Below, piece after piece: positions 678 through 35,936 of a stretch of 37,743 nt of DNA. The stretch lies in assembly GCA_944381355.1 (NCBI GenBank), contig CALWKV010000023.1, positions 1 through 37,743 of the forward strand, read 5' to 3'. A program made the translations under genes and the position numbers. Each line of letters starts with the position of its first letter. Position 1 is the first letter of the stretch. The stretch is from an uncultured Christensenellaceae bacterium (GTDB lineage Bacteria > Bacillota > Clostridia > Christensenellales > UBA3700). The notes beneath the pieces were generated by a model. The model had not been told where the DNA came from. It ran no database searches and saw only the letters and a program-made list of their open reading frames with translations.

Positions 678-706
678 TTGACAAAGGTTCAACGATAAGT
701 TATAAT
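678..706 (+). promoter_or_regulatory. Consensus sigmaA promoter
   Basis: TTGACA (678-683), 17-bp spacer, TATAAT (701-706). No ORF downstream before the terminator at 851-882. Confidence 0.9.
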
Positions 707-721
707 ATCTGTGAAGTGTTG

Positions 722-836
722 AAAACAAACCTGATTCTGGCACCGCCACAGCAGCGGCAGCAAGGCTGAACAGGCAGCCAAAACAACCTGATTCTGGCAC
801 CGCCATAGCAGCGGCAGCAAGGCTGAACAGGCAGCC
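722..836 (+). repeat. Direct tandem repeat, 2 x ~57 nt
   Basis: AAAACA(A)ACCTGATTCTGGCACCGCCA(C/T)AGCAGCGGCAGCAAGGCTGAACAGGCAGCC at 722-779 and 780-836; one substitution and one A indel. Confidence 0.97.
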
Positions 837-850
837 CGAAAATCGACACT

Positions 851-882
851 CGAGGTCGTCCGTAGGACGGCCTTGTTTTTTT
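851..882 (+). terminator. Intrinsic terminator
   Basis: CGAGGTCGTCC-GTA-GGACGGCCTTG hairpin (G-U pairs work on the + strand) followed by a 7-T run. Confidence 0.85.
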
Positions 883-951
883 GTCGACTGCGTTGCGATT
901 TTAAGTTTTTCGCAAAAAGAAAAAGAGCGCATAAGTTTGTGCCCTTTTGCG

Positions 952-2139: not shown

Positions 2140-2236
2140 CAGCAGAGTAAGCACAACGCGTCAAGTGTTGAAGGATGGGATGTCGCCTTCAAACGAAAAT
2201 CCCGCGCGGTTTGCGGTGTTGTGTTGCGTCCGCTGT
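2140..2236 (+). ncRNA. Tetrahydrofolate (THF) riboswitch
   Basis: GCAGAGTA...GCGTCAAGTG...GGATGGGATGTCG...AACGAA...GCGGT...GCGTCCGCTG matches the THF aptamer consensus and lies upstream of a folate-type ECF S component. Confidence 0.93.
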
Positions 2237-2305
2237 AAAATATTATTACCATAAAATTTTATTGCAACGGCTCTGCTGTATCACTATTTTAAGGAGGACT
2301 GCGCT

Positions 2306-3043
2306 ATGAGAAGCAGGACACAGAAAATAGCTGATATGGCAATTTTTATCGCCCTCGGAGTGGTGTTAAATCTTTGTTCATTTCAGTCGTTCGGCACGTA
2401 TCTGGGAAGGATAAGTCTCGTTTATCTCTTTTGTTACCTTTCGGGATTCATTCTTGGACCGTGGCAGGGGTTTGCTGTCGCGTTTATCGCCGATCTTATC
2501 CCCGGGATATTTTTTCCGACGGGACCTTATTCTATAATTATATCGGTCAGCAACGCGACTATGGCGCTTATTGCGGGTTGTTACGGCAGATATACAGACT
2601 GGAAAGTCGTTTGGAAGCTGCTTGCGACTGCGGCGACGTCGTTTGTGGTCTGCACGCTTACTCTCACCGTTATCGGAGAAGTAAACAGCCTGCTGATAAT
2701 CCCTGTCGGAGAGTATGAAGCGGCAAGCCTATACAGTATGTATCCTTATACGCTTGCTAAAGTCATCATCGGCGAGGGGTGGGGAGTGAAAGAGCCTTAT
2801 TTCCAGATGATGCTTGCCAAGGCGATACAGCAACCGCTGTGGATCGTGCTTAATTCTTTGGTTACGTACGTGATTTACGCGAGACTTCAGCCGATACTCA
2901 AAAGGGGCGGCTACGTTGCGTCGGAGGAGCGCAAGAACGCGCAGGGCAACGGGCGTTCGCGTTATGACGGCGTTGTTATCGCGGGTAAACCCGCAGAGGA
3001 AAATCCGCCGTCTGCCTGCGACGGAGTAGTGATCGGCAAGTGA
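2306..3043 (+). CDS. folT: Folate-family ECF transporter S component
   Basis: A.FIAL.VVL...G.ILGP..G..VAFIADLI...FFPTGPY pattern, about 6 TM segments, AAGGAGG RBS, THF riboswitch upstream. Confidence 0.85.
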   Translation: MRSRTQKIADMAIFIALGVVLNLCSFQSFGTYLGRISLVYLFCYLSGFILGPWQGFAVAFIADLIPGIFFPTGPYSIIISVSNATMALIAGCYGRYTDWKVVWKLLATAATSFVVCTLTLTVIGEVNSLLIIPVGEYEAASLYSMYPYTLAKVIIGEGWGVKEPYFQMMLAKAIQQPLWIVLNSLVTYVIYARLQPILKRGGYVASEERKNAQGNGRSRYDGVVIAGKPAEENPPSACDGVVIGK

Positions 3044-5297: not shown

Positions 5298-8200
5298 TTA
5301 TTTCGTATACTTGTCTTTCTTGCTCTTTGCGGGAGCGTCGGACTGTTTTCTGGAGCCGCTCTTGACGAGCTTCTTGCTCTTCTTGGAGAACTTCCTGAAC
5401 AGCACCACGATCACAGCCACGATGATGAGCGCGCCGAGAACGCCGGAGGAGATCCACAGCCACAGATAATCCGCAGCGGGATTGGTCGGGTCGGTCGGCT
5501 CGGTTTCTTCGGGTTCTTCTTCTGCGTCGGCGTCGTCCTGCGTGAATACGATGCGGTAGTTGTTTGCTACGAGTTCGTCAGCGATCAGCGATTCGTCGAT
5601 CGTATCCTCGGTTTCGCCTTCAACGGGCTTTCTGTCTATGAAGTCTTCTTCGCTTATTTCGTCAACGGTGAAGTTGTCGAAGAACGCATATCCCTTGACG
5701 AAGTTTTCTTCGTCCTCGTATCCGAGCGAAAGCGTCAGAGTAGCGGTCGGGGTGACGTCTGCGTCCGTCTTTACATAGAAGTTGTACTGAGTCCAGCTGC
5801 CAACGGTCTCGGTGCCGTCATCGGCGTAAGTCGAGGTGTTGACTGCGCGCTTGACGTCGTTGTCCTCGGTGCGGGTCAGCTTGCCGAAGGTGTAGCTGAG
5901 GTTGTTCAGCTTGAGAGCGATCGTCGCGCTGTCGTCCTTTTCCAGTCCGTAGGTCAGCACCCATACGCTTATTCTGTAATAGGTGTCGCCCTTGAGGGTC
6001 AGAGAGGACGAGGTGTACTTGTAGGCGTTGGCGTTCTTGTTGTAGATAACGAGTACGTTGTCGCCCACGTTGTTGGTGTCGGTATTGTTGTAGACCGCGT
6101 TGACGATCACGCTGTCTTCAGCGTTGTCGGGGTCGAGGTCGAGGAGAGACCAGTCGCCCTCTTTGCGGTTGAATACGCCTGCAGTCAGATCAACGTCGTC
6201 GGTGCTTGCGTCGTCGTCGATCTTGGCACCCGTCCAGTTGGAGGGAGTGGACGCCGCGCCTTCAGAAGTCGTATAGCTGTCGAAAGAGTCGGTATTGAAA
6301 GATCTCTCAAACACCGTCTTGCCGAGCGAGCCGTCAGAAGTAGCGGCATCGAGAACCGCGTTGTAAGTCATCTCTGACAGAGTGGTGTACGACGCCATCG
6401 TGAAGTATGCGGTCTTGACTTCGCCGGGCAGACCGTTTTCGCTACCTATATAAAGGTTGAGGTTTGCGGAGACGGAAGTCGCGCTGGTCCTGACAAGGAA
6501 GGTGTACTGCTGCCAGTCGGTGCCCATGTCGGTAGCCGTTATCGGAGATACCGAGTAGTTGGCGCTTTTTGTGGTCGTATCGAGAGATACGGTCATGACA
6601 GAGTTGGCTTCCATCTTTGCCCATACGGAAACGAGATAGTAAGAATCCGAGGACAGAGATATCGTGTTGGACTTGTATCCGAAGTAAGCCGCGTCGCCGC
6701 TTATCGCGAGGACGTTGGGGTAGTCGGTCGCGTTGATACCAGCCATATTCATCGAATCGTAGAAAGTAGCTTCGTCAACGGTAAGACCCGCGGCAGCCTT
6801 CTGATCTGCGTTGGTGATATCGAGAACGCCCGCGGTAACGTCGCCGTTCTTAAGAGAATCGGTATTGCTTGCCGTCCAGTTGGTGGGAACGCCGAGCGCG
6901 CCGGTCAGAACGCCGTCTGCATTGTAAACATCGTCGCCGTAGGTCTCCATCGTGGACTTGACGTCAACGTTCTTGAAGTAGCCGTTGGAAGAAACTTCCG
7001 CGCTGCCGCCCGTAGAAGTGAAGGAGTAAGTCTTGAGCACGGTCGAAGTGCTTGCCGACGAATAATCGGACGCGGTGATCTTTTCTACGGTCGCGGTGGA
7101 AACGAACGCGTATCCCATAACGAACGATGAGGAGTCGTTTGCAGTGCCGCTTCCGAGGCTGATGTCGAAGCCTATCTTAGCGGCTTCGGAGCCGGTCTGA
7201 ACGAAGAATCTGATCTCCGTGTAATCGGCGTTGTTGGCGCTCTTGTAGTCGGAGAGATTTTCTGTGTTCAGAGACGAGAAGGTGGACAGAGTTGTCTTGG
7301 AATCTTCAAAATCCTTTTCGTCGTCGTAACTGACGAGAGAGACCGTCAGACCGGAAGAACTGTCGATGTCCTTTGTCTTTATCCACATCGTAAACGTGTA
7401 ATAAGAGTTGGGCAGTACCGTGTAAGAACCGTCGCTGACCGTACCGTCCTCTTTTTCATATATATTTGAAAGAGTATAGACGGAGGGCAGATAGTTGTTG
7501 ATCACGAGCACAGAGGTCGCGAGAGAAGTCGGGGTCTCGGGGTTGTCGATAGAGGAGTAGCTGCCGTTTGCCCAGTTTGCCGTGTCGACTACGCCGAAAG
7601 AGCTTCTTCCGGTGATAGCGTCCTCGCCGCCCGCTTCGCCGAAGTTGGCGAGATTGAGCAGAGAGTCTGCGGTCAGCTCGCTTGCAAAGCTGTGTTTGAA
7701 TACCGTCTCGCTCTCGGTAGCCGCGGCAAATTCTTCAGCGGTAATTTCGGTGAGACTCATATCGTCTGCAAAGAAGATGCCTTGTACGTGCGTGGAAGTG
7801 TCGTCTGCACCGCCTTCGCCCAGCCAGAACTCAAGGTATACGTCCTGATATCTGAACTGATTGGATTCTACGTAAATGTCGATCTGTTTCCATTCGCCTG
7901 CGGTGTTGATGTTTTCAGCCGCAAAATATACCGTGGAATCTGTCGTGCCGTCTGTCAGTTTTATCGACATGCCTTTGCTCTGATCGGCGATGACCGTTCT
8001 CACCCAGATGCTGAGCCTGTAATATTCTTCGCCGCCGATGAAGCGCGTCGCAACCGTGCTTCTTATGCCGTAGGCGGTCGCTTTCTTGTTCTGCTGATAA
8101 TATATCCTGCCCTGAGAGCCGTCGTGCGTCGTGACAGCTATGTCGGTAGCCGACGCGCTGTCGGTCACGGTAGCGGTCTCCGCGGTCTTGAGGATGCCTT

Positions 8201-9137
8201 TGGTTATATAGTCCGAAGCGGAGGGAGCGTCGTCACCGTTGCCCGTGCCCTTGACGCCCGTGTACTTGCTGGGAGTGTAGGGGGAGGAGGTGGACGTCGT
8301 ATAGTCGAAGTCTGCGTCAGAGAGCTTCATCGTATACTTGGCTACGCTTTCGGTCTCTTTGAGTGCGCTGAAATCCTGAGCAGTCCATGCGGTCTCGTCC
8401 TCTTCGACGTCGGAGAGGTTTTCAAGCGTAACGCTGTCGAAGAACGCCCAGCCCTTGGTCATGGATTTCTCCATCTTGGAGCCGTTGCCCAGAGAGAGGA
8501 CCACGGTGATCGTCTGAGAGGAAATGTCGCTCGTCTCGATATAGACGTTGTATTCTTTCCATGCGCCCTCGGTGTCTATGGCTTCAAACGCCGCATAAGC
8601 CGCGCCGTTCACATAGATATAAGCGCCGCTTTTGCCTTCGTTGTACTCGCTGTCGCTCTTGTCGATGCCGATAGTCTTGACCCATACGCTGAGCTTGTAG
8701 TAAGACGACTTGTCCAGCGTTACGCTTGCGGACGTGTACTTGTAGACCGTTGCGACTTTGTTGTATATCATAAGGATATTGTCGTCTTCGCCGATCTTGC
8801 CCGGGTTTGCCGCGCCGCCGTAAGTCTTGCTGTTGGCGCGGTAAGTCTTGTCCTCGGTGCTGATGACGCCCGCGATAAGATTGTCGCTGCCGGTAGGGGT
8901 CTTATAGCTGTCGCTGGAGCTGGTGGAGGAGCCTGCCGCACCCGTCCAGTTGGTCGGGATCTGAGGATAGCTCGTGCCGTCAGCGCCGCTGAAACTGCCG
9001 TTGGTGAAAAGTTCGGAAGTAGATTCTTCTGTCGGACTCGTCGTAGTGTCGTCATTGCAAGCGACGAAAGATGCGACGAGAAGGATGCAGAGAATTGCCG
9101 AGATCACTGTGAGCAAAATTTTCTTGTTCCTTTTCAT
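5298..9137 (-). CDS. Large surface lipoprotein (1279 aa) with about five repeated CBM4/9-like beta-sandwich domains and a C-terminal TM anchor
   Basis: Signal peptide ending in a lipobox-like SFVAC; five YY-x-x-S/T-x-W-x-K/R/L repeats; acidic/Pro linker, hydrophobic helix and Lys-rich tail at the C-terminus. The domain identity is an inference. Confidence 0.8.
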   Translation of the reverse strand: MKRNKKILLTVISAILCILLVASFVACNDDTTTSPTEESTSELFTNGSFSGADGTSYPQIPTNWTGAAGSSTSSSDSYKTPTGSDNLIAGVISTEDKTYRANSKTYGGAANPGKIGEDDNILMIYNKVATVYKYTSASVTLDKSSYYKLSVWVKTIGIDKSDSEYNEGKSGAYIYVNGAAYAAFEAIDTEGAWKEYNVYIETSDISSQTITVVLSLGNGSKMEKSMTKGWAFFDSVTLENLSDVEEDETAWTAQDFSALKETESVAKYTMKLSDADFDYTTSTSSPYTPSKYTGVKGTGNGDDAPSASDYITKGILKTAETATVTDSASATDIAVTTHDGSQGRIYYQQNKKATAYGIRSTVATRFIGGEEYYRLSIWVRTVIADQSKGMSIKLTDGTTDSTVYFAAENINTAGEWKQIDIYVESNQFRYQDVYLEFWLGEGGADDTSTHVQGIFFADDMSLTEITAEEFAAATESETVFKHSFASELTADSLLNLANFGEAGGEDAITGRSSFGVVDTANWANGSYSSIDNPETPTSLATSVLVINNYLPSVYTLSNIYEKEDGTVSDGSYTVLPNSYYTFTMWIKTKDIDSSSGLTVSLVSYDDEKDFEDSKTTLSTFSSLNTENLSDYKSANNADYTEIRFFVQTGSEAAKIGFDISLGSGTANDSSSFVMGYAFVSTATVEKITASDYSSASTSTVLKTYSFTSTGGSAEVSSNGYFKNVDVKSTMETYGDDVYNADGVLTGALGVPTNWTASNTDSLKNGDVTAGVLDITNADQKAAAGLTVDEATFYDSMNMAGINATDYPNVLAISGDAAYFGYKSNTISLSSDSYYLVSVWAKMEANSVMTVSLDTTTKSANYSVSPITATDMGTDWQQYTFLVRTSATSVSANLNLYIGSENGLPGEVKTAYFTMASYTTLSEMTYNAVLDAATSDGSLGKTVFERSFNTDSFDSYTTSEGAASTPSNWTGAKIDDDASTDDVDLTAGVFNRKEGDWSLLDLDPDNAEDSVIVNAVYNNTDTNNVGDNVLVIYNKNANAYKYTSSSLTLKGDTYYRISVWVLTYGLEKDDSATIALKLNNLSYTFGKLTRTEDNDVKRAVNTSTYADDGTETVGSWTQYNFYVKTDADVTPTATLTLSLGYEDEENFVKGYAFFDNFTVDEISEEDFIDRKPVEGETEDTIDESLIADELVANNYRIVFTQDDADAEEEPEETEPTDPTNPAADYLWLWISSGVLGALIIVAVIVVLFRKFSKKSKKLVKSGSRKQSDAPAKSKKDKYTK

Positions 9138-34679: not shown

Positions 34680-34709
34680 TTGACACGGCGTTGCACTAAA
34701 GGTTATAAT
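34680..34709 (+). promoter_or_regulatory. sigmaA promoter of rtcB
   Basis: TTGACA-N18-TATAAT. Confidence 0.7.
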
Positions 34710-34760
34710 AGCGTTTACAAAGTCACGGAACAAAAATGCGACATAGCTGAAGGAGGCTTT

Positions 34761-35936
34761 ATGATAGAATTCGAAAACGTCAAAATATTTACAGACAGGG
34801 TGGGTGAAAACGCGCTGGCTCAGCTTCGCACGCTCTGCGGTACGGGCGTGTTCGACGGGCTTCCCATACGCATTATGCCGGACGTTCATGCCGGCAACGG
34901 CTGTGTGATAGGATTTACCGTGCCGCTCGGCGACAAGGTGATCCCCAATCTCGTGGGCGTGGATATTTCCTGCGGTATGCTCTGTGTGCCGCTCGGCAAA
35001 GCAGCGCCCGATTTCGCGGCAGTCGACGACGCGATCAGACGTTATGTGCCCTCGGGACGTGAAGTCGGAGGGTTTTCCGACGAGGCGCATGATATTATAA
35101 TGCAACTGCGCTGTTATGACAATATATGCAACAAGGCGAGAATAGAAGCGTCGCTCGGGACTCTCGGCGGCGGCAACCATTTTATCGAGATCGACGTTGA
35201 CGGCGAAGGAGGATATTATCTTATAGTACATACGGGGTCGCGCCATCTCGGCGTGCAGGTCGCCAATTATTATCAGAAGCTGGCGATCAAGTCGCGTTGG
35301 AAATTGATGAGTGCGGCACTGATAGAACGCTACAAGAGCGAGGGGAGAGACAAGGAGATCGCCTCCGCGCTTGCAGAGCTTAAGGCAGGAGACACTTTGC
35401 CCGAGGCGCTCAATTACCTCGAGGGAGAGCCTATGCTCGATTATCTGTACGACGCGAATGTGTGCGGACTCTTTGCCGATCTCAACAGAAAGAAGATCGC
35501 GTCGGCGATTCTTGCCGCGTGCTGCCCGGGCGTTAAAGTCGAGGACGGGTTTACGACTCTGCACAACTGCATAGGCGACGACGGCTACGTGCGCAAAGGC
35601 GCGATATGCGCGAGAGAGGGGCAGAGAGTGCTGATACCTCTCAATATGCGCGACGGCTGTATAATCGGCATAGGCAAGGGCAATCCCGACTGGAACTATT
35701 CTGCGCCTCACGGAGCAGGCAGACTTATGTCGCGAGCCGCCGCGAGAGCGAATATAGATCTTCAGGCATACAAGGAGAGCATGAAGGGAGTGTATTCCTC
35801 CACCGTGTGCGACGGCACTCTTGACGAAGCTCCGTCGGCATACAAGCCTTCGGAAGAAATCGTCGAACTTGTAAAAGATACAGTACAAATAGAAAAGAGA
35901 ATATTCAGCGTCTACAACTTCAAGGCATCGGAATGA
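34761..35936 (+). CDS. rtcB: RtcB-family RNA ligase
   Basis: MPDVHAG.GC.IG, GVDISCG, GTLGGGNHFIE, HTGSR, HN, SAPHGAGR.MSR, DEAPSAYK; AAGGAGG RBS. Confidence 0.95.
   Translation: MIEFENVKIFTDRVGENALAQLRTLCGTGVFDGLPIRIMPDVHAGNGCVIGFTVPLGDKVIPNLVGVDISCGMLCVPLGKAAPDFAAVDDAIRRYVPSGREVGGFSDEAHDIIMQLRCYDNICNKARIEASLGTLGGGNHFIEIDVDGEGGYYLIVHTGSRHLGVQVANYYQKLAIKSRWKLMSAALIERYKSEGRDKEIASALAELKAGDTLPEALNYLEGEPMLDYLYDANVCGLFADLNRKKIASAILAACCPGVKVEDGFTTLHNCIGDDGYVRKGAICAREGQRVLIPLNMRDGCIIGIGKGNPDWNYSAPHGAGRLMSRAAARANIDLQAYKESMKGVYSSTVCDGTLDEAPSAYKPSEEIVELVKDTVQIEKRIFSVYNFKASE

What the first reader, a model, noticed from the sequence alone, without database searches (positions are those of the whole stretch)
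678..882. Orphan structured ncRNA with two near-identical 57-nt domains between a perfect promoter and a terminator
Seen: TTGACA-N17-TATAAT would drive a ~170-nt RNA with no ORF. An 8-bp stem (715-722 with 843-850) closes a junction holding two repeats separated by AAAAC linkers. Each repeat can form CCGC-[CA(C/T)AGCA]-GCGG (the only substitution falls in this loop) and GGCTG-[AACAGG]-CAGCC. The upstream CCTG(A)TTC is complementary to GAACAGG, giving an alternative fold or pseudoknot. The next gene is convergent, so a cis riboswitch is unlikely. I do not recognise it as 6S, SRP, tmRNA, RNase P or a known ribozyme. Inference: a highly expressed trans-acting RNA, e.g. a bivalent protein sponge. 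The promoter-repeats-terminator layout also resembles type III antitoxin arrays, but no toxin gene follows.
Basis: partly seen in the sequence, partly recalled or inferred. Interest (0 to 1): 0.78.

Follow-up and report, generated by a model that had tools for sequence, protein, structure and literature searches.

The report
Orphan interlocked-pseudoknot RNA, antitoxin-like
A short, strongly promoted RNA gene made of two interlocking pseudoknot units sits alone after uvrA here, but in related gut bacteria the same RNA lies just ahead of toxin-like genes on mobile elements, so it is probably an undescribed RNA antitoxin kept as an orphan.

Summary
A 12/12 consensus promoter (678-706), an 8-bp closing stem, two 57-nt tandem units (723-779, 780-836) and a strong terminator (851-882) are all present. 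No Rfam family matches.

The element is a real RNA gene. It occurs in 9 of 74 genomes of one Christensenellaceae-like family, and in none of 150 other genomes sampled from the order. It has one or two units and always its own promoter and terminator. The closing stem, one hairpin and the pseudoknot covary.

In two-unit RNAs the pseudoknots are crosswise: the 5' CCUG of unit 1 pairs with the loop of unit 2, and the reverse. Unit number varies between near-identical strains, so the duplication is not an assembly artefact. In this genus the units are better conserved (92-100%) than the flanking genes (74-90%).

In three other locus types the RNA and its terminator directly precede a PBECR4 nuclease or a Fic gene on mobile DNA. 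One of these sits next to a canonical AbiQ type III module.

My best reading (about 0.4) is a type III-like RNA antitoxin, orphaned here; no such toxin was found in this 78%-complete genome. There is no expression data and no binding evidence.

The parts
678..706 (+). Sigma-70-type promoter TTGACA-17-TATAAT; the transcription start is inferred at about 713
   Evidence: 12 of 12 matches. An equivalent TTGAC(A/T)-17-TATAAT stands before every homologue read.
715..722 (+). P1 closing stem, 5' strand
   Evidence: Pairs with 843-850. Across 7 two-unit RNAs, 2 of 8 pairs change on both sides and 85% of cells are paired.
723..779 (+). Unit 1 (57 nt)
   Evidence: Direct repeat family D1. R1 covariance model scores 91.0 bits.
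730..733 (+). Unit 1 5' pseudoknot strand CCUG. It pairs with the unit 2 hairpin loop at 828-831 (crosswise).
   Evidence: 100% of cells paired and 2 of 4 pairs changed on both sides in the crosswise model. The within-unit model gives 89.3% with 3 unpaired cells.
740..761 (+). Unit 1 hairpin Pa: GC, a bulged A, then CCGC; 7-nt loop; GCGG, CA, GC
   Evidence: Predicted by RNAalifold. A G-C to A-U change on both sides occurs in G057. The loop varies in sequence and the stem is extended in G057 unit 2.
764..779 (+). Unit 1 hairpin Pb: GGCUG, 6-nt loop AACAGG, CAGCC. Loop bases 771-774 pair with 787-790.
   Evidence: The stem is invariant in all copies, so it has no covariation evidence. Loop pairing shows 100% of cells paired and 1 of 4 pairs changed on both sides.
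780..836 (+). Unit 2 (57 nt): pseudoknot strand 787-790, Pa 797-818, Pb 821-836 with loop 826-831
   Evidence: R1 scores 91.2 bits. Unit 2 Pa shows 2 changes on both sides and one G-U.
843..850 (+). P1 closing stem, 3' strand
851..882 (+). Intrinsic terminator: stem-loop 851-875 and T7 at 876-882. Its base (AGGUC...GACCUU) is conserved among homologues.
   Evidence: 11 pairs, 7 G-C. Homologous terminators.
927..942 (.). Second, weaker terminator-like hairpin. It is probably the original uvrA/DUF4363 terminator that predates the RNA cassette (inferred).
   Evidence: RNA-free genomes of the genus have only one short hairpin between uvrA and DUF4363.

Best explanation
This is the gene for a small RNA of about 170 nt that belongs to no described family.

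Structure. A P1 stem encloses two 57-nt units. Each unit has two hairpins (Pa and Pb) and a 4-nt strand that pairs with a Pb loop. In two-unit RNAs these pairings are reciprocal between the units, so the RNA folds as one interlocked pseudo-dimer. One-unit versions make the same pairing within the unit (or, untested, between two molecules).

Origin. The ancestral setting is a mobile cassette with the layout strong promoter, RNA, intrinsic terminator, toxin-like effector gene. This is the layout of type III toxin-antitoxin operons.

Proposed function (inferred, not shown). The abundant RNA neutralises the effector, which is made only by terminator read-through. The copy in this window has lost or never had the effector gene. 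It is kept under purifying selection and acts in trans, for example as an orphan antitoxin or immunity RNA against such effectors arriving on mobile elements.

Shown: the gene anatomy, conservation, covariation, unit-number variation, and adjacency to effector genes elsewhere.
Inferred: expression, binding, neutralisation, and the role of the orphan copy.
For: 1. Real, selected RNA gene.
- It is present in 9 of 74 genomes of the family, spread over 4 of 11 genera. Each copy has its own near-consensus promoter and terminator.
- Within the genus, G000 versus G009/G001/G014/G005 identity is 100/92/92/94% for the unit. It is 89/79/74/82% for the uvrA 3' end, 90/79/77/78% for DUF4363, and 76/46/25/53% for the downstream spacer.
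- Unit spacing is 57 or 58 nt in different genomes, which excludes a reading frame running through both units.

2. Structure.
- RNAalifold recovers P1, Pa and Pb.
- With the crosswise pseudoknot, 97.0% of 264 cells pair and 7 pairs change on both sides; 0 of 500 shuffles reach the covariation score.
- The crosswise model beats the within-unit model through two independent discriminating changes: G043 has CCCG/CGGG, and G074 and M031 have CCUA/UAGG.
- A one-unit variant with the same flanks as M031 (L036) joins the unit 1 5' strand to the unit 2 loop and stays complementary.

3. Type III-like cassette.
- In L038 the promoter is at 870-898, the terminator at 1042-1070, and the ATG of a PBECR4-domain protein at 1091.
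- In G057 the promoter is at 1916-1944, the terminator at 2102-2125, and the PBECR4-like ATG at 2147. Directly upstream sits a second module of the same layout whose toxin matches ToxN_toxin (Pfam) and AbiQ (PADLOC).
- In G041 the terminator, the ribosome-binding site and the first codons are homologous to those of L038. They are followed by a Fic gene that shares the L038 C-terminal tail.
- The setting is mobile: a TraG/VirB4-like ATPase, ParA and a UPF0236 transposase flank the G057 cassette, and ParA-like and UPF0236 genes flank L038.

4. No conserved alternative pairing links P1 to the terminator. This is from my reading of 10 homologues, and it fits a constitutive terminator.
Against: - No toxin partner was found here. 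G000 has no match to ToxN_toxin, Fic, PBECR4 or the tail-bearing protein. The genome is only 78% complete.
- Three of six locus types (this genus, G074, and G043 apart from an unrelated-looking Fic with its own promoter) are housekeeping intergenic sites with no co-transcribed effector.
- The effector differs between cassettes: PBECR4 nuclease in some, Fic in another. This is hard to reconcile with active-site occlusion by one conserved RNA.
- No defining toxin family of type III systems follows the RNA.
- A P1 stem closes the whole RNA and there are only 1-2 units. Processed type III repeat arrays do not look like this.
- Related toxin clusters (ToxN in 6 of 74 genomes, VapD-like in 10 of 74) lie mostly in genomes without the RNA.
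- The PBECR4-like protein is very rare: 8 relatives in the 5.8-billion-protein collection. The adjacency therefore rests on a few related cassettes.
- Covariation rests on 12 distinct RNAs. Pb never varies. For the five one-unit RNAs, 188 of 500 shuffles reach the observed score.
- There is no transcript evidence.
Confidence: 0.4

Rival explanations
1. A trans-acting small RNA with a host function unrelated to toxins. It could be a protein sponge, scaffold or base-pairing regulator. Its adjacency to effector genes elsewhere would then only reflect a small cassette landing in variable regions.
For: - It is an orphan and under selection at a housekeeping site in at least 5 species of the genus, and also in G074.
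- It carries a strong promoter.
- A GGCA(C/G)C word recurs three times per unit at 17-nt spacing (my reading). That could be a protein-binding array.
- Toxin families do not co-vary with the RNA across the 74 genomes.
Against: - It is found in only 9 of 74 genomes, and in 5 of 15 in the genus counting G000. RNA-free relatives have an empty site. It is therefore dispensable and looks like an accessory gene.
- Three locus types share a homologous terminator, ribosome-binding site and start region leading into an effector. That is more than chance adjacency.
- No target or partner was identified.
Confidence: 0.25
2. A riboswitch-like sensor or leader. Each unit would be an aptamer for an unknown ligand or signal that governs read-through of the terminator into the effector gene. 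Orphan copies would act as ligand sponges or small RNAs.
For: - The architecture is aptamer-like: a P1-closed junction, a pseudoknot, and many invariant junction nucleotides (41 of 60 columns invariant in 12 units).
- One or two tandem copies occur, as in some tandem riboswitches (recalled).
- A terminator follows P1 within 0-8 nt.
Against: - I could find no conserved antiterminator or alternative pairing between the aptamer 3' part and the terminator in the 10 homologues read.
- The orphan copies with a convergent downstream gene are the best conserved.
- There is no match to any Rfam riboswitch.
- A consensus promoter with a long T-run terminator suggests a discrete abundant RNA.
Confidence: 0.15
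3. A catalytic or otherwise autonomous RNA module, such as a new self-cleaving ribozyme class. Such RNAs typically occur in tandem, near mobile or toxin genes in bacteria, and as multicopy elements in eukaryotes.
For: - Seven eukaryote-looking metagenome contigs carry a multicopy element of about 90 nt. It shares the 24-nt Pb region exactly, a 9-nt stretch and other words, and has a Pa hairpin with a different, complementary stem sequence.
- There is a mobile-element context in bacteria.
Against: - There is no match to any ribozyme family, even at E up to 10, or in the eukaryote-looking contigs at E up to 1.
- The pseudoknot strand is not complementary in the eukaryote-looking copies.
- Those contigs were selected by the 24-nt pattern itself.
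- There is no evidence of cleavage.
Confidence: 0.07
4. A non-functional remnant or an assembly artefact of a duplicated segment.
For: It is a MAG from short reads, the two copies are near-identical, and there is no expression evidence.
Against: - Independent assemblies carry two-unit forms: 7 distinct sequences, and contigs of two further runs.
- The structure shows compensatory changes.
- Conservation exceeds that of the neighbouring coding sequence.
Confidence: 0.02

Closest known systems
Type III toxin-antitoxin antitoxin RNAs (ToxI, AntiQ, CptI, TenpI)
   Same: - In homologous cassettes the operon layout matches: one promoter, short tandem RNA repeats, a Rho-independent terminator, then the toxin gene. 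This layout is as described in passages of PMC5086642.
- The RNA units are pseudoknotted.
- The context is mobile or defence-related.
- In G057 the cassette lies directly beside an AbiQ/ToxN-type module of the same layout.
   Different: - The downstream proteins are a PBECR4 (BECR-fold) nuclease or Fic, not ToxN, CptN or TenpN.
- The units are 57 nt, there are only one or two, and they are enclosed by a P1 stem and interlocked. They do not look like a processable array.
- The copy in this window has no toxin gene at all.
- Processing and binding are untested.
   Same: A 4-bp complementary pairing between a single-stranded segment or loop of one module and a loop of another module holds modules together. 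The pairing is supported by covariation rather than by sequence conservation.
   Different: - In pRNA the pairing is between separate molecules forming a ring on a phage prohead. Here the two modules are covalently linked in one transcript in two-unit forms.
- There is no sequence or context similarity, and no phage match.
Tandem-aptamer riboswitches such as glycine (recalled)
   Same: Two similar structured domains lie in tandem with tertiary contacts between them, upstream of a terminator.
   Different: - No Rfam match.
- No expression platform with alternative pairing was found.
- The window copy regulates no downstream gene.
Orphan antitoxin or immunity genes of toxin systems (general concept, recalled)
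   Same: The neutralising partner is retained alone, under selection, in genomes that lack the toxin, while relatives carry the full cassette on mobile DNA.
   Different: Known examples are proteins or antisense RNAs. An orphan structured RNA antitoxin would be unusual, and it is not demonstrated here.

Membership tests
Type III toxin-antitoxin system | Antitoxin gene is a tandem array of short direct nucleotide repeats | tested here: met
   Two 57-nt repeats in the window. Homologues have one or two. One-unit forms fit an 'array' only weakly.
Type III toxin-antitoxin system | A Rho-independent terminator separates the repeats from a downstream toxin gene in one operon | tested here: not met
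   The terminator is present, but the next gene in the window is convergent. The feature is met in homologous cassettes L038, G057 and G041.
Type III toxin-antitoxin system | Toxin is an endoribonuclease of the ToxN/AbiQ, CptN or TenpN families | tested here: not met
   No ToxN_toxin match in G000. The effectors after the RNA elsewhere are PBECR4 or Fic. CptN and TenpN were not searched separately.
Type III toxin-antitoxin system | Toxin processes the repeat RNA into monomers that bind and inhibit it | not testable with these tools
   This needs biochemistry. No RNA run was available.
Type III toxin-antitoxin system | Antitoxin monomer folds as a pseudoknot | tested here: met
   The 4-bp pseudoknot has 100% of cells paired and changes on both sides.
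Any Rfam 15 family (including 6S, SRP, tmRNA, RNase P, riboswitches, ribozymes) | Covariance-model score at or above the family's gathering threshold | tested here: not met
   No hit in 600-960 at gathering. The four hits at E up to 10 score 6-16 bits against thresholds of 45-112.
Transcription-terminating riboswitch | Mutually exclusive aptamer/antiterminator/terminator pairings upstream of a regulated gene | tested here: inconclusive
   No conserved alternative pairing was seen by eye in 10 homologues, and there is no regulated gene in the window. No dedicated computation or ligand test was run.
Protein-coding repeat | A conserved open frame through the repeats | tested here: not met
   No + strand ORF of 30 aa or more. 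Unit spacing is 57 or 58 nt among homologues. Substitutions are compensatory. Open frames on the minus strand are not consistent across homologues.

The most novel reading that the evidence does not exclude
This would be a new RNA architecture: two 57-nt modules locked together by reciprocal (crosswise) 4-bp pseudoknots, in effect a covalently linked kissing dimer. One-module versions may dimerise in trans. The RNA would serve as an immunity or antitoxin factor for nuclease or Fic effectors carried, and perhaps delivered, by conjugative elements, so that orphan chromosomal copies like this one protect cells that lack the element. The conserved core also turns up as a multicopy small element in eukaryote-looking contigs, which would make it a cross-domain RNA module.
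Probability: 0.12. Interest if true: 0.85.

Novelty: new variant of a known kind. Interest (0 to 1): 0.62.

Why it matters
If the best reading is right, RNA-antitoxin (type III-like) logic extends beyond the three known toxin families to BECR-fold nucleases and perhaps Fic enzymes. It would also give the first case of an orphan structured RNA antitoxin maintained on a chromosome.

Independently of function, the RNA is a compact natural example of two modules interlocked by reciprocal pseudoknots, with natural one-module and two-module variants. That makes it attractive for RNA structure work.

It comes from uncultured gut Christensenellaceae-like bacteria, whose RNA biology is unexplored. Two of my literature searches found nothing on it.

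Tried and rejected
- Rfam: searched at gathering and at E up to 10. Nothing credible.
- Earlier findings of this scan: searched by sequence. Nothing found.
- RNA-seq: no RNA holder was listed. The one 'RNA-Seq' run (X1) is probably DNA and only held relatives' units. There is therefore no evidence on expression, ends or processing.
- Wider homologue hunts:
  - Order-level covariance-model search hit only the own genome, 1 of 151.
  - Viral contigs gave 0. Blastn against plasmids and phages gave no match.
I scanned 75 and 77 of these with the model, leaving out loci already known. The best scores were 24.4 and 24.5 bits, so they are chance hits.
- The search for related loci with the PBECR4-like alignment found no relative.
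- Co-occurrence of the RNA with ToxN or VapD clusters across the family: not seen.
- Inverted repeats flanking the cassette (I1): not conserved in homologues, so there is no evidence of a transposon-like border.
- Antisense pairing of the RNA to the effector start region: a 7-nt match in L038 only, not conserved. Rejected.
- Single-sequence folding with 3' flank gave a spurious long-range stem and was not used.
- Literature: 'PBECR4' gave 1 unrelated paper (listing only). The type III plus Fic search gave reviews only (listing). I read passages of PMC5086642 only. No supplements were consulted.

Full report
OBSERVATION

The window starts inside the 3' end of uvrA, whose stop codon is at 642-644. 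A 12/12 consensus promoter follows at 678-706 (TTGACA-17-TATAAT). It is the only promoter-like site in 500-1100, where shuffles give 0.4 on average.

Downstream lie two 57-nt direct repeats at 723-779 and 780-836, 95% identical. They are bracketed by an 8-bp stem, 715-722 with 843-850. A terminator follows directly: 851-875 with 11 pairs, 7 of them G-C, then T7.

The next gene is convergent. It is a DUF4363 protein at 952-1338 on the minus strand, followed by a DUF421/YetF-like gene. No + strand ORF of 30 aa or more lies in the element.

The single-sequence fold is only modestly better than shuffles (z -2.07). The case for function has to come from comparison with relatives.

KNOWN FAMILIES

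Rfam 15 gives nothing for this region at gathering thresholds. The four matches at E up to 10 score 6-16 bits against thresholds of 45-112. This scan's earlier notes hold nothing similar.

DISTRIBUTION

The element is single-copy in its own genome, which is 1.6 Mb in 123 contigs and 78% complete. BLAST found it in 4 of 14 other genomes of the genus.

I built covariance model R1 from 12 units. It hit 9 of 74 genomes of the family:
- genus g1: the own genome plus 4 of 14 others
- g3: 2 of 8
- g10: 1 of 9
- g9: 1 of 23
- the other seven genera: 0

In a 151-genome sample of the order it hit only the own genome. Record titles of the matching public contigs name Christensenellaceae or Christensenella sp. 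MAGs and one 'Candidatus Caccalectryoclostridium' MAG.

A pattern scan of metagenome contigs added four bacterial loci: L030, L031, L036 and L038. Viral contigs, plasmids and phages gave nothing.

IT IS A SELECTED RNA GENE

Every homologue I read has its own TTGAC(A/T)-17-TATAAT promoter and a terminator whose base (AGGUC...GACCUU) is conserved while its top varies.

In genus g1 the element always lies between uvrA and DUF4363. Five RNA-free genomes of the genus have only a short hairpin there. The cassette of roughly 230 bp is therefore a presence/absence difference.

Identity between G000 and four relatives:

| Region | G009 | G001 | G014 | G005 |
|---|---|---|---|---|
| RNA unit | 100% | 92% | 92% | 94% |
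| uvrA 3' end | 89% | 79% | 74% | 82% |
| DUF4363 | 90% | 79% | 77% | 78% |
| Promoter spacer region | 91% | 61% | 66% | 61% |
| Downstream spacer | 76% | 46% | 25% | 53% |

The orphan RNA is thus better conserved than the neighbouring coding sequence. Unit spacing is 57 nt in some genomes and 58 nt in others, which excludes a reading frame through both units.

UNIT NUMBER VARIES

G009, G005, G041, L030 and L036 have one unit. G000, G001, G014, G043, G074, G057 and L031/L038 have two.

G009 has flanks about 90% identical to the window's (uvrA 3' end 89%, DUF4363 90%) but only one unit. Contigs of two further runs (one study) span 560-1000 with two units. A contig of another run has the same flanks with exactly 57 nt missing. 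L036 is the one-unit form of the L031/L038 locus.

The duplication is therefore real and recurrently gained or lost. It is not an assembly artefact.

STRUCTURE

RNAalifold on seven two-unit RNAs independently predicts P1, a hairpin Pa in each unit and a hairpin Pb in each unit.
- Pa is an outer G-C and C-G pair, a bulge, four pairs, and a variable 7-nt loop.
- Pb is five invariant pairs with a 6-nt loop.

P1 covaries: 2 of 8 pairs change on both sides and 85% of cells are paired. Pa shows G-C to A-U changes on both sides. Pb never varies, so it is neither supported nor contradicted by covariation. One counter-example exists: G041 breaks one of the two outer Pa pairs.

THE CROSSWISE PSEUDOKNOT

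With the unit 1 5' strand paired to the unit 2 Pb loop, and the unit 1 Pb loop paired to the unit 2 5' strand, all 56 pseudoknot cells pair. Three of 8 pairs change on both sides.

With within-unit pairing, 3 cells are unpaired and more G-U pairs are needed.

The discriminating changes are two independent events:
- G043 has CCCG in unit 1 and CGGG in the unit 2 loop.
- G074 and M031 have CCUA in unit 1 and UAGG in the unit 2 loop.

G057 changed all four strands together and does not discriminate.

The one-unit L036 combines the 5' strand of unit 1 with the loop of unit 2 and remains perfectly complementary. All five one-unit RNAs keep 20 of 20 pseudoknot cells paired. With so little variation, however, 188 of 500 shuffles do as well.

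The sample is small (12 distinct RNAs) and the sequences are related. This is good but not overwhelming evidence.

CONTEXT ELSEWHERE

I count six locus types.
- Three are housekeeping intergenic sites: this genus; G074, between an esterase gene and a convergent GerA-type operon; and G043, after an aminotransferase gene and before a Fic gene that has its own promoter.
- In the other three, a gene starts about 20 nt after the RNA's terminator with no room for a promoter.

The three co-transcribed cases:
- In L038 and G057 the gene encodes a PBECR4-domain (barnase/EndoU/colicin/RelE-like) nuclease.
- In G041 the terminator, the ribosome-binding site and the first codons are homologous to those of L038. 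After a 14-codon stub, a Fic gene follows. Its last 60 residues resemble the L038 tail (BLASTP E 2e-5 for the single comparison).

Mobile-DNA setting:
- The G057 cassette lies in a conjugative-element-like region with a TraG/VirB4-like ATPase, ParA and a UPF0236 transposase.
- L038 has a ParA-like ORF upstream (by eye, from the translation) and a UPF0236 gene downstream.

Directly upstream of the G057 cassette is a second module of the same layout. It has a promoter at 804-832, an untranslated stretch with two 18-nt repeats 57 nt apart, a terminator at 949-979, and an ATG at 1001. Its protein matches ToxN_toxin (Pfam) and AbiQ (PADLOC), a bona fide type III toxin family.

Both Fic proteins match PADLOC SoFic/PDC-S04 models.

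INTERPRETATION

The promoter, repeat RNA, terminator, toxin-like gene layout is the one passages of the type III review describe as defining (PMC5086642). Its occurrence next to a canonical module makes a type III-like RNA antitoxin the best single reading for the family. The window's copy would then be an orphan kept for trans-protection.

I hold this at about 0.4 for the following reasons:
- The window genome shows no ToxN, Fic, PBECR4 or tail-bearing protein, though it is 78% complete.
- Half the locus types lack a co-transcribed effector.
- The effector domain was swapped from nuclease to Fic under the same RNA.
- The RNA is P1-closed and interlocked rather than an obviously processable array.
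- Related toxin clusters occur mostly in RNA-free genomes.
- The PBECR4-like protein is so rare (8 relatives) that the adjacency rests on a few related cassettes.

The rivals are:
- a host small RNA or protein sponge (0.25)
- a riboswitch-like leader (0.15; weakened by the lack of any conserved antiterminator and by the orphan copies being the best conserved)
- an autonomous or catalytic RNA (0.07)
- a remnant or artefact (0.02)

The remaining probability is unassigned.

AN UNEXPLAINED SIDE OBSERVATION

Seven metagenome contigs look eukaryotic. They have no ORF longer than 135 codons, contain telomere-like CCCTAA runs and microsatellites, and are 41-47% GC.

Each carries one copy of a conserved element of about 90 nt behind conserved upstream boxes. 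The element shares several features with the bacterial unit:
- the exact 24-nt Pb region
- a 9-nt stretch before Pa
- other shorter words
- a Pa hairpin with a different but complementary stem

R1 scores these copies at 35.6-40.4 bits.

The contigs were selected by the 24-nt pattern, the pseudoknot strand is not complementary in them, and no Rfam family matches. I cannot say whether this reflects homology, transfer or convergence.

VERDICT

The function of the orphan copy remains inferred.

Noticed in passing
window 2141-2237 (+), with the gene at 2306-3043 (+): A THF (tetrahydrofolate) riboswitch, 68.8 bits against a gathering score of 36. It lies upstream of an ECF-transporter S-component gene. 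This is an ordinary folate-transporter arrangement.
   Followed up: partly
L028, L029, L032, L033, L034, L035, L037 (metagenome contigs); e.g. L029 1593-1698: Eukaryote-looking, non-coding contigs each carry a conserved element of about 90 nt with conserved upstream boxes. Its core closely resembles the bacterial RNA unit: an exact 24-nt stretch plus more, with R1 scores of 35.6-40.4 bits. No Rfam match. The origin and meaning are unexplained.
   Followed up: partly
L047 (G057) 804-1001: The AbiQ/ToxN-like gene in G057 has its own promoter, an untranslated leader with two 18-nt repeats spaced 57 nt apart, and a terminator. This is a likely type III antitoxin region with the same 57-nt period as the RNA studied here.
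   Followed up: partly
L173 (G005:C7) 865-2873; L038 1091-2020; L020 461-1402: Unrelated toxin-like proteins share a C-terminal module of about 60-70 residues ending in a Lys/Gly-rich tail. They are the PBECR4-like protein, a Fic protein, a VapD-family protein and a 310-aa protein without a Pfam hit. They lie next to UPF0236 transposase genes. This looks like a polymorphic effector set with a common tail of unknown role.
   Followed up: partly
window 927-942: A second, weaker terminator-like hairpin lies between the RNA's terminator and the DUF4363 stop codon. It is probably the original terminator of the convergent uvrA/DUF4363 pair.
   Followed up: partly
window 5298-9137 (-): A 1279-aa ORF with no Pfam family at E up to 1e-5.
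   Followed up: no
window 34680-35936 (+): An RtcB RNA ligase gene, about 34 kb from the RNA. No link to the RNA is shown.
   Followed up: no
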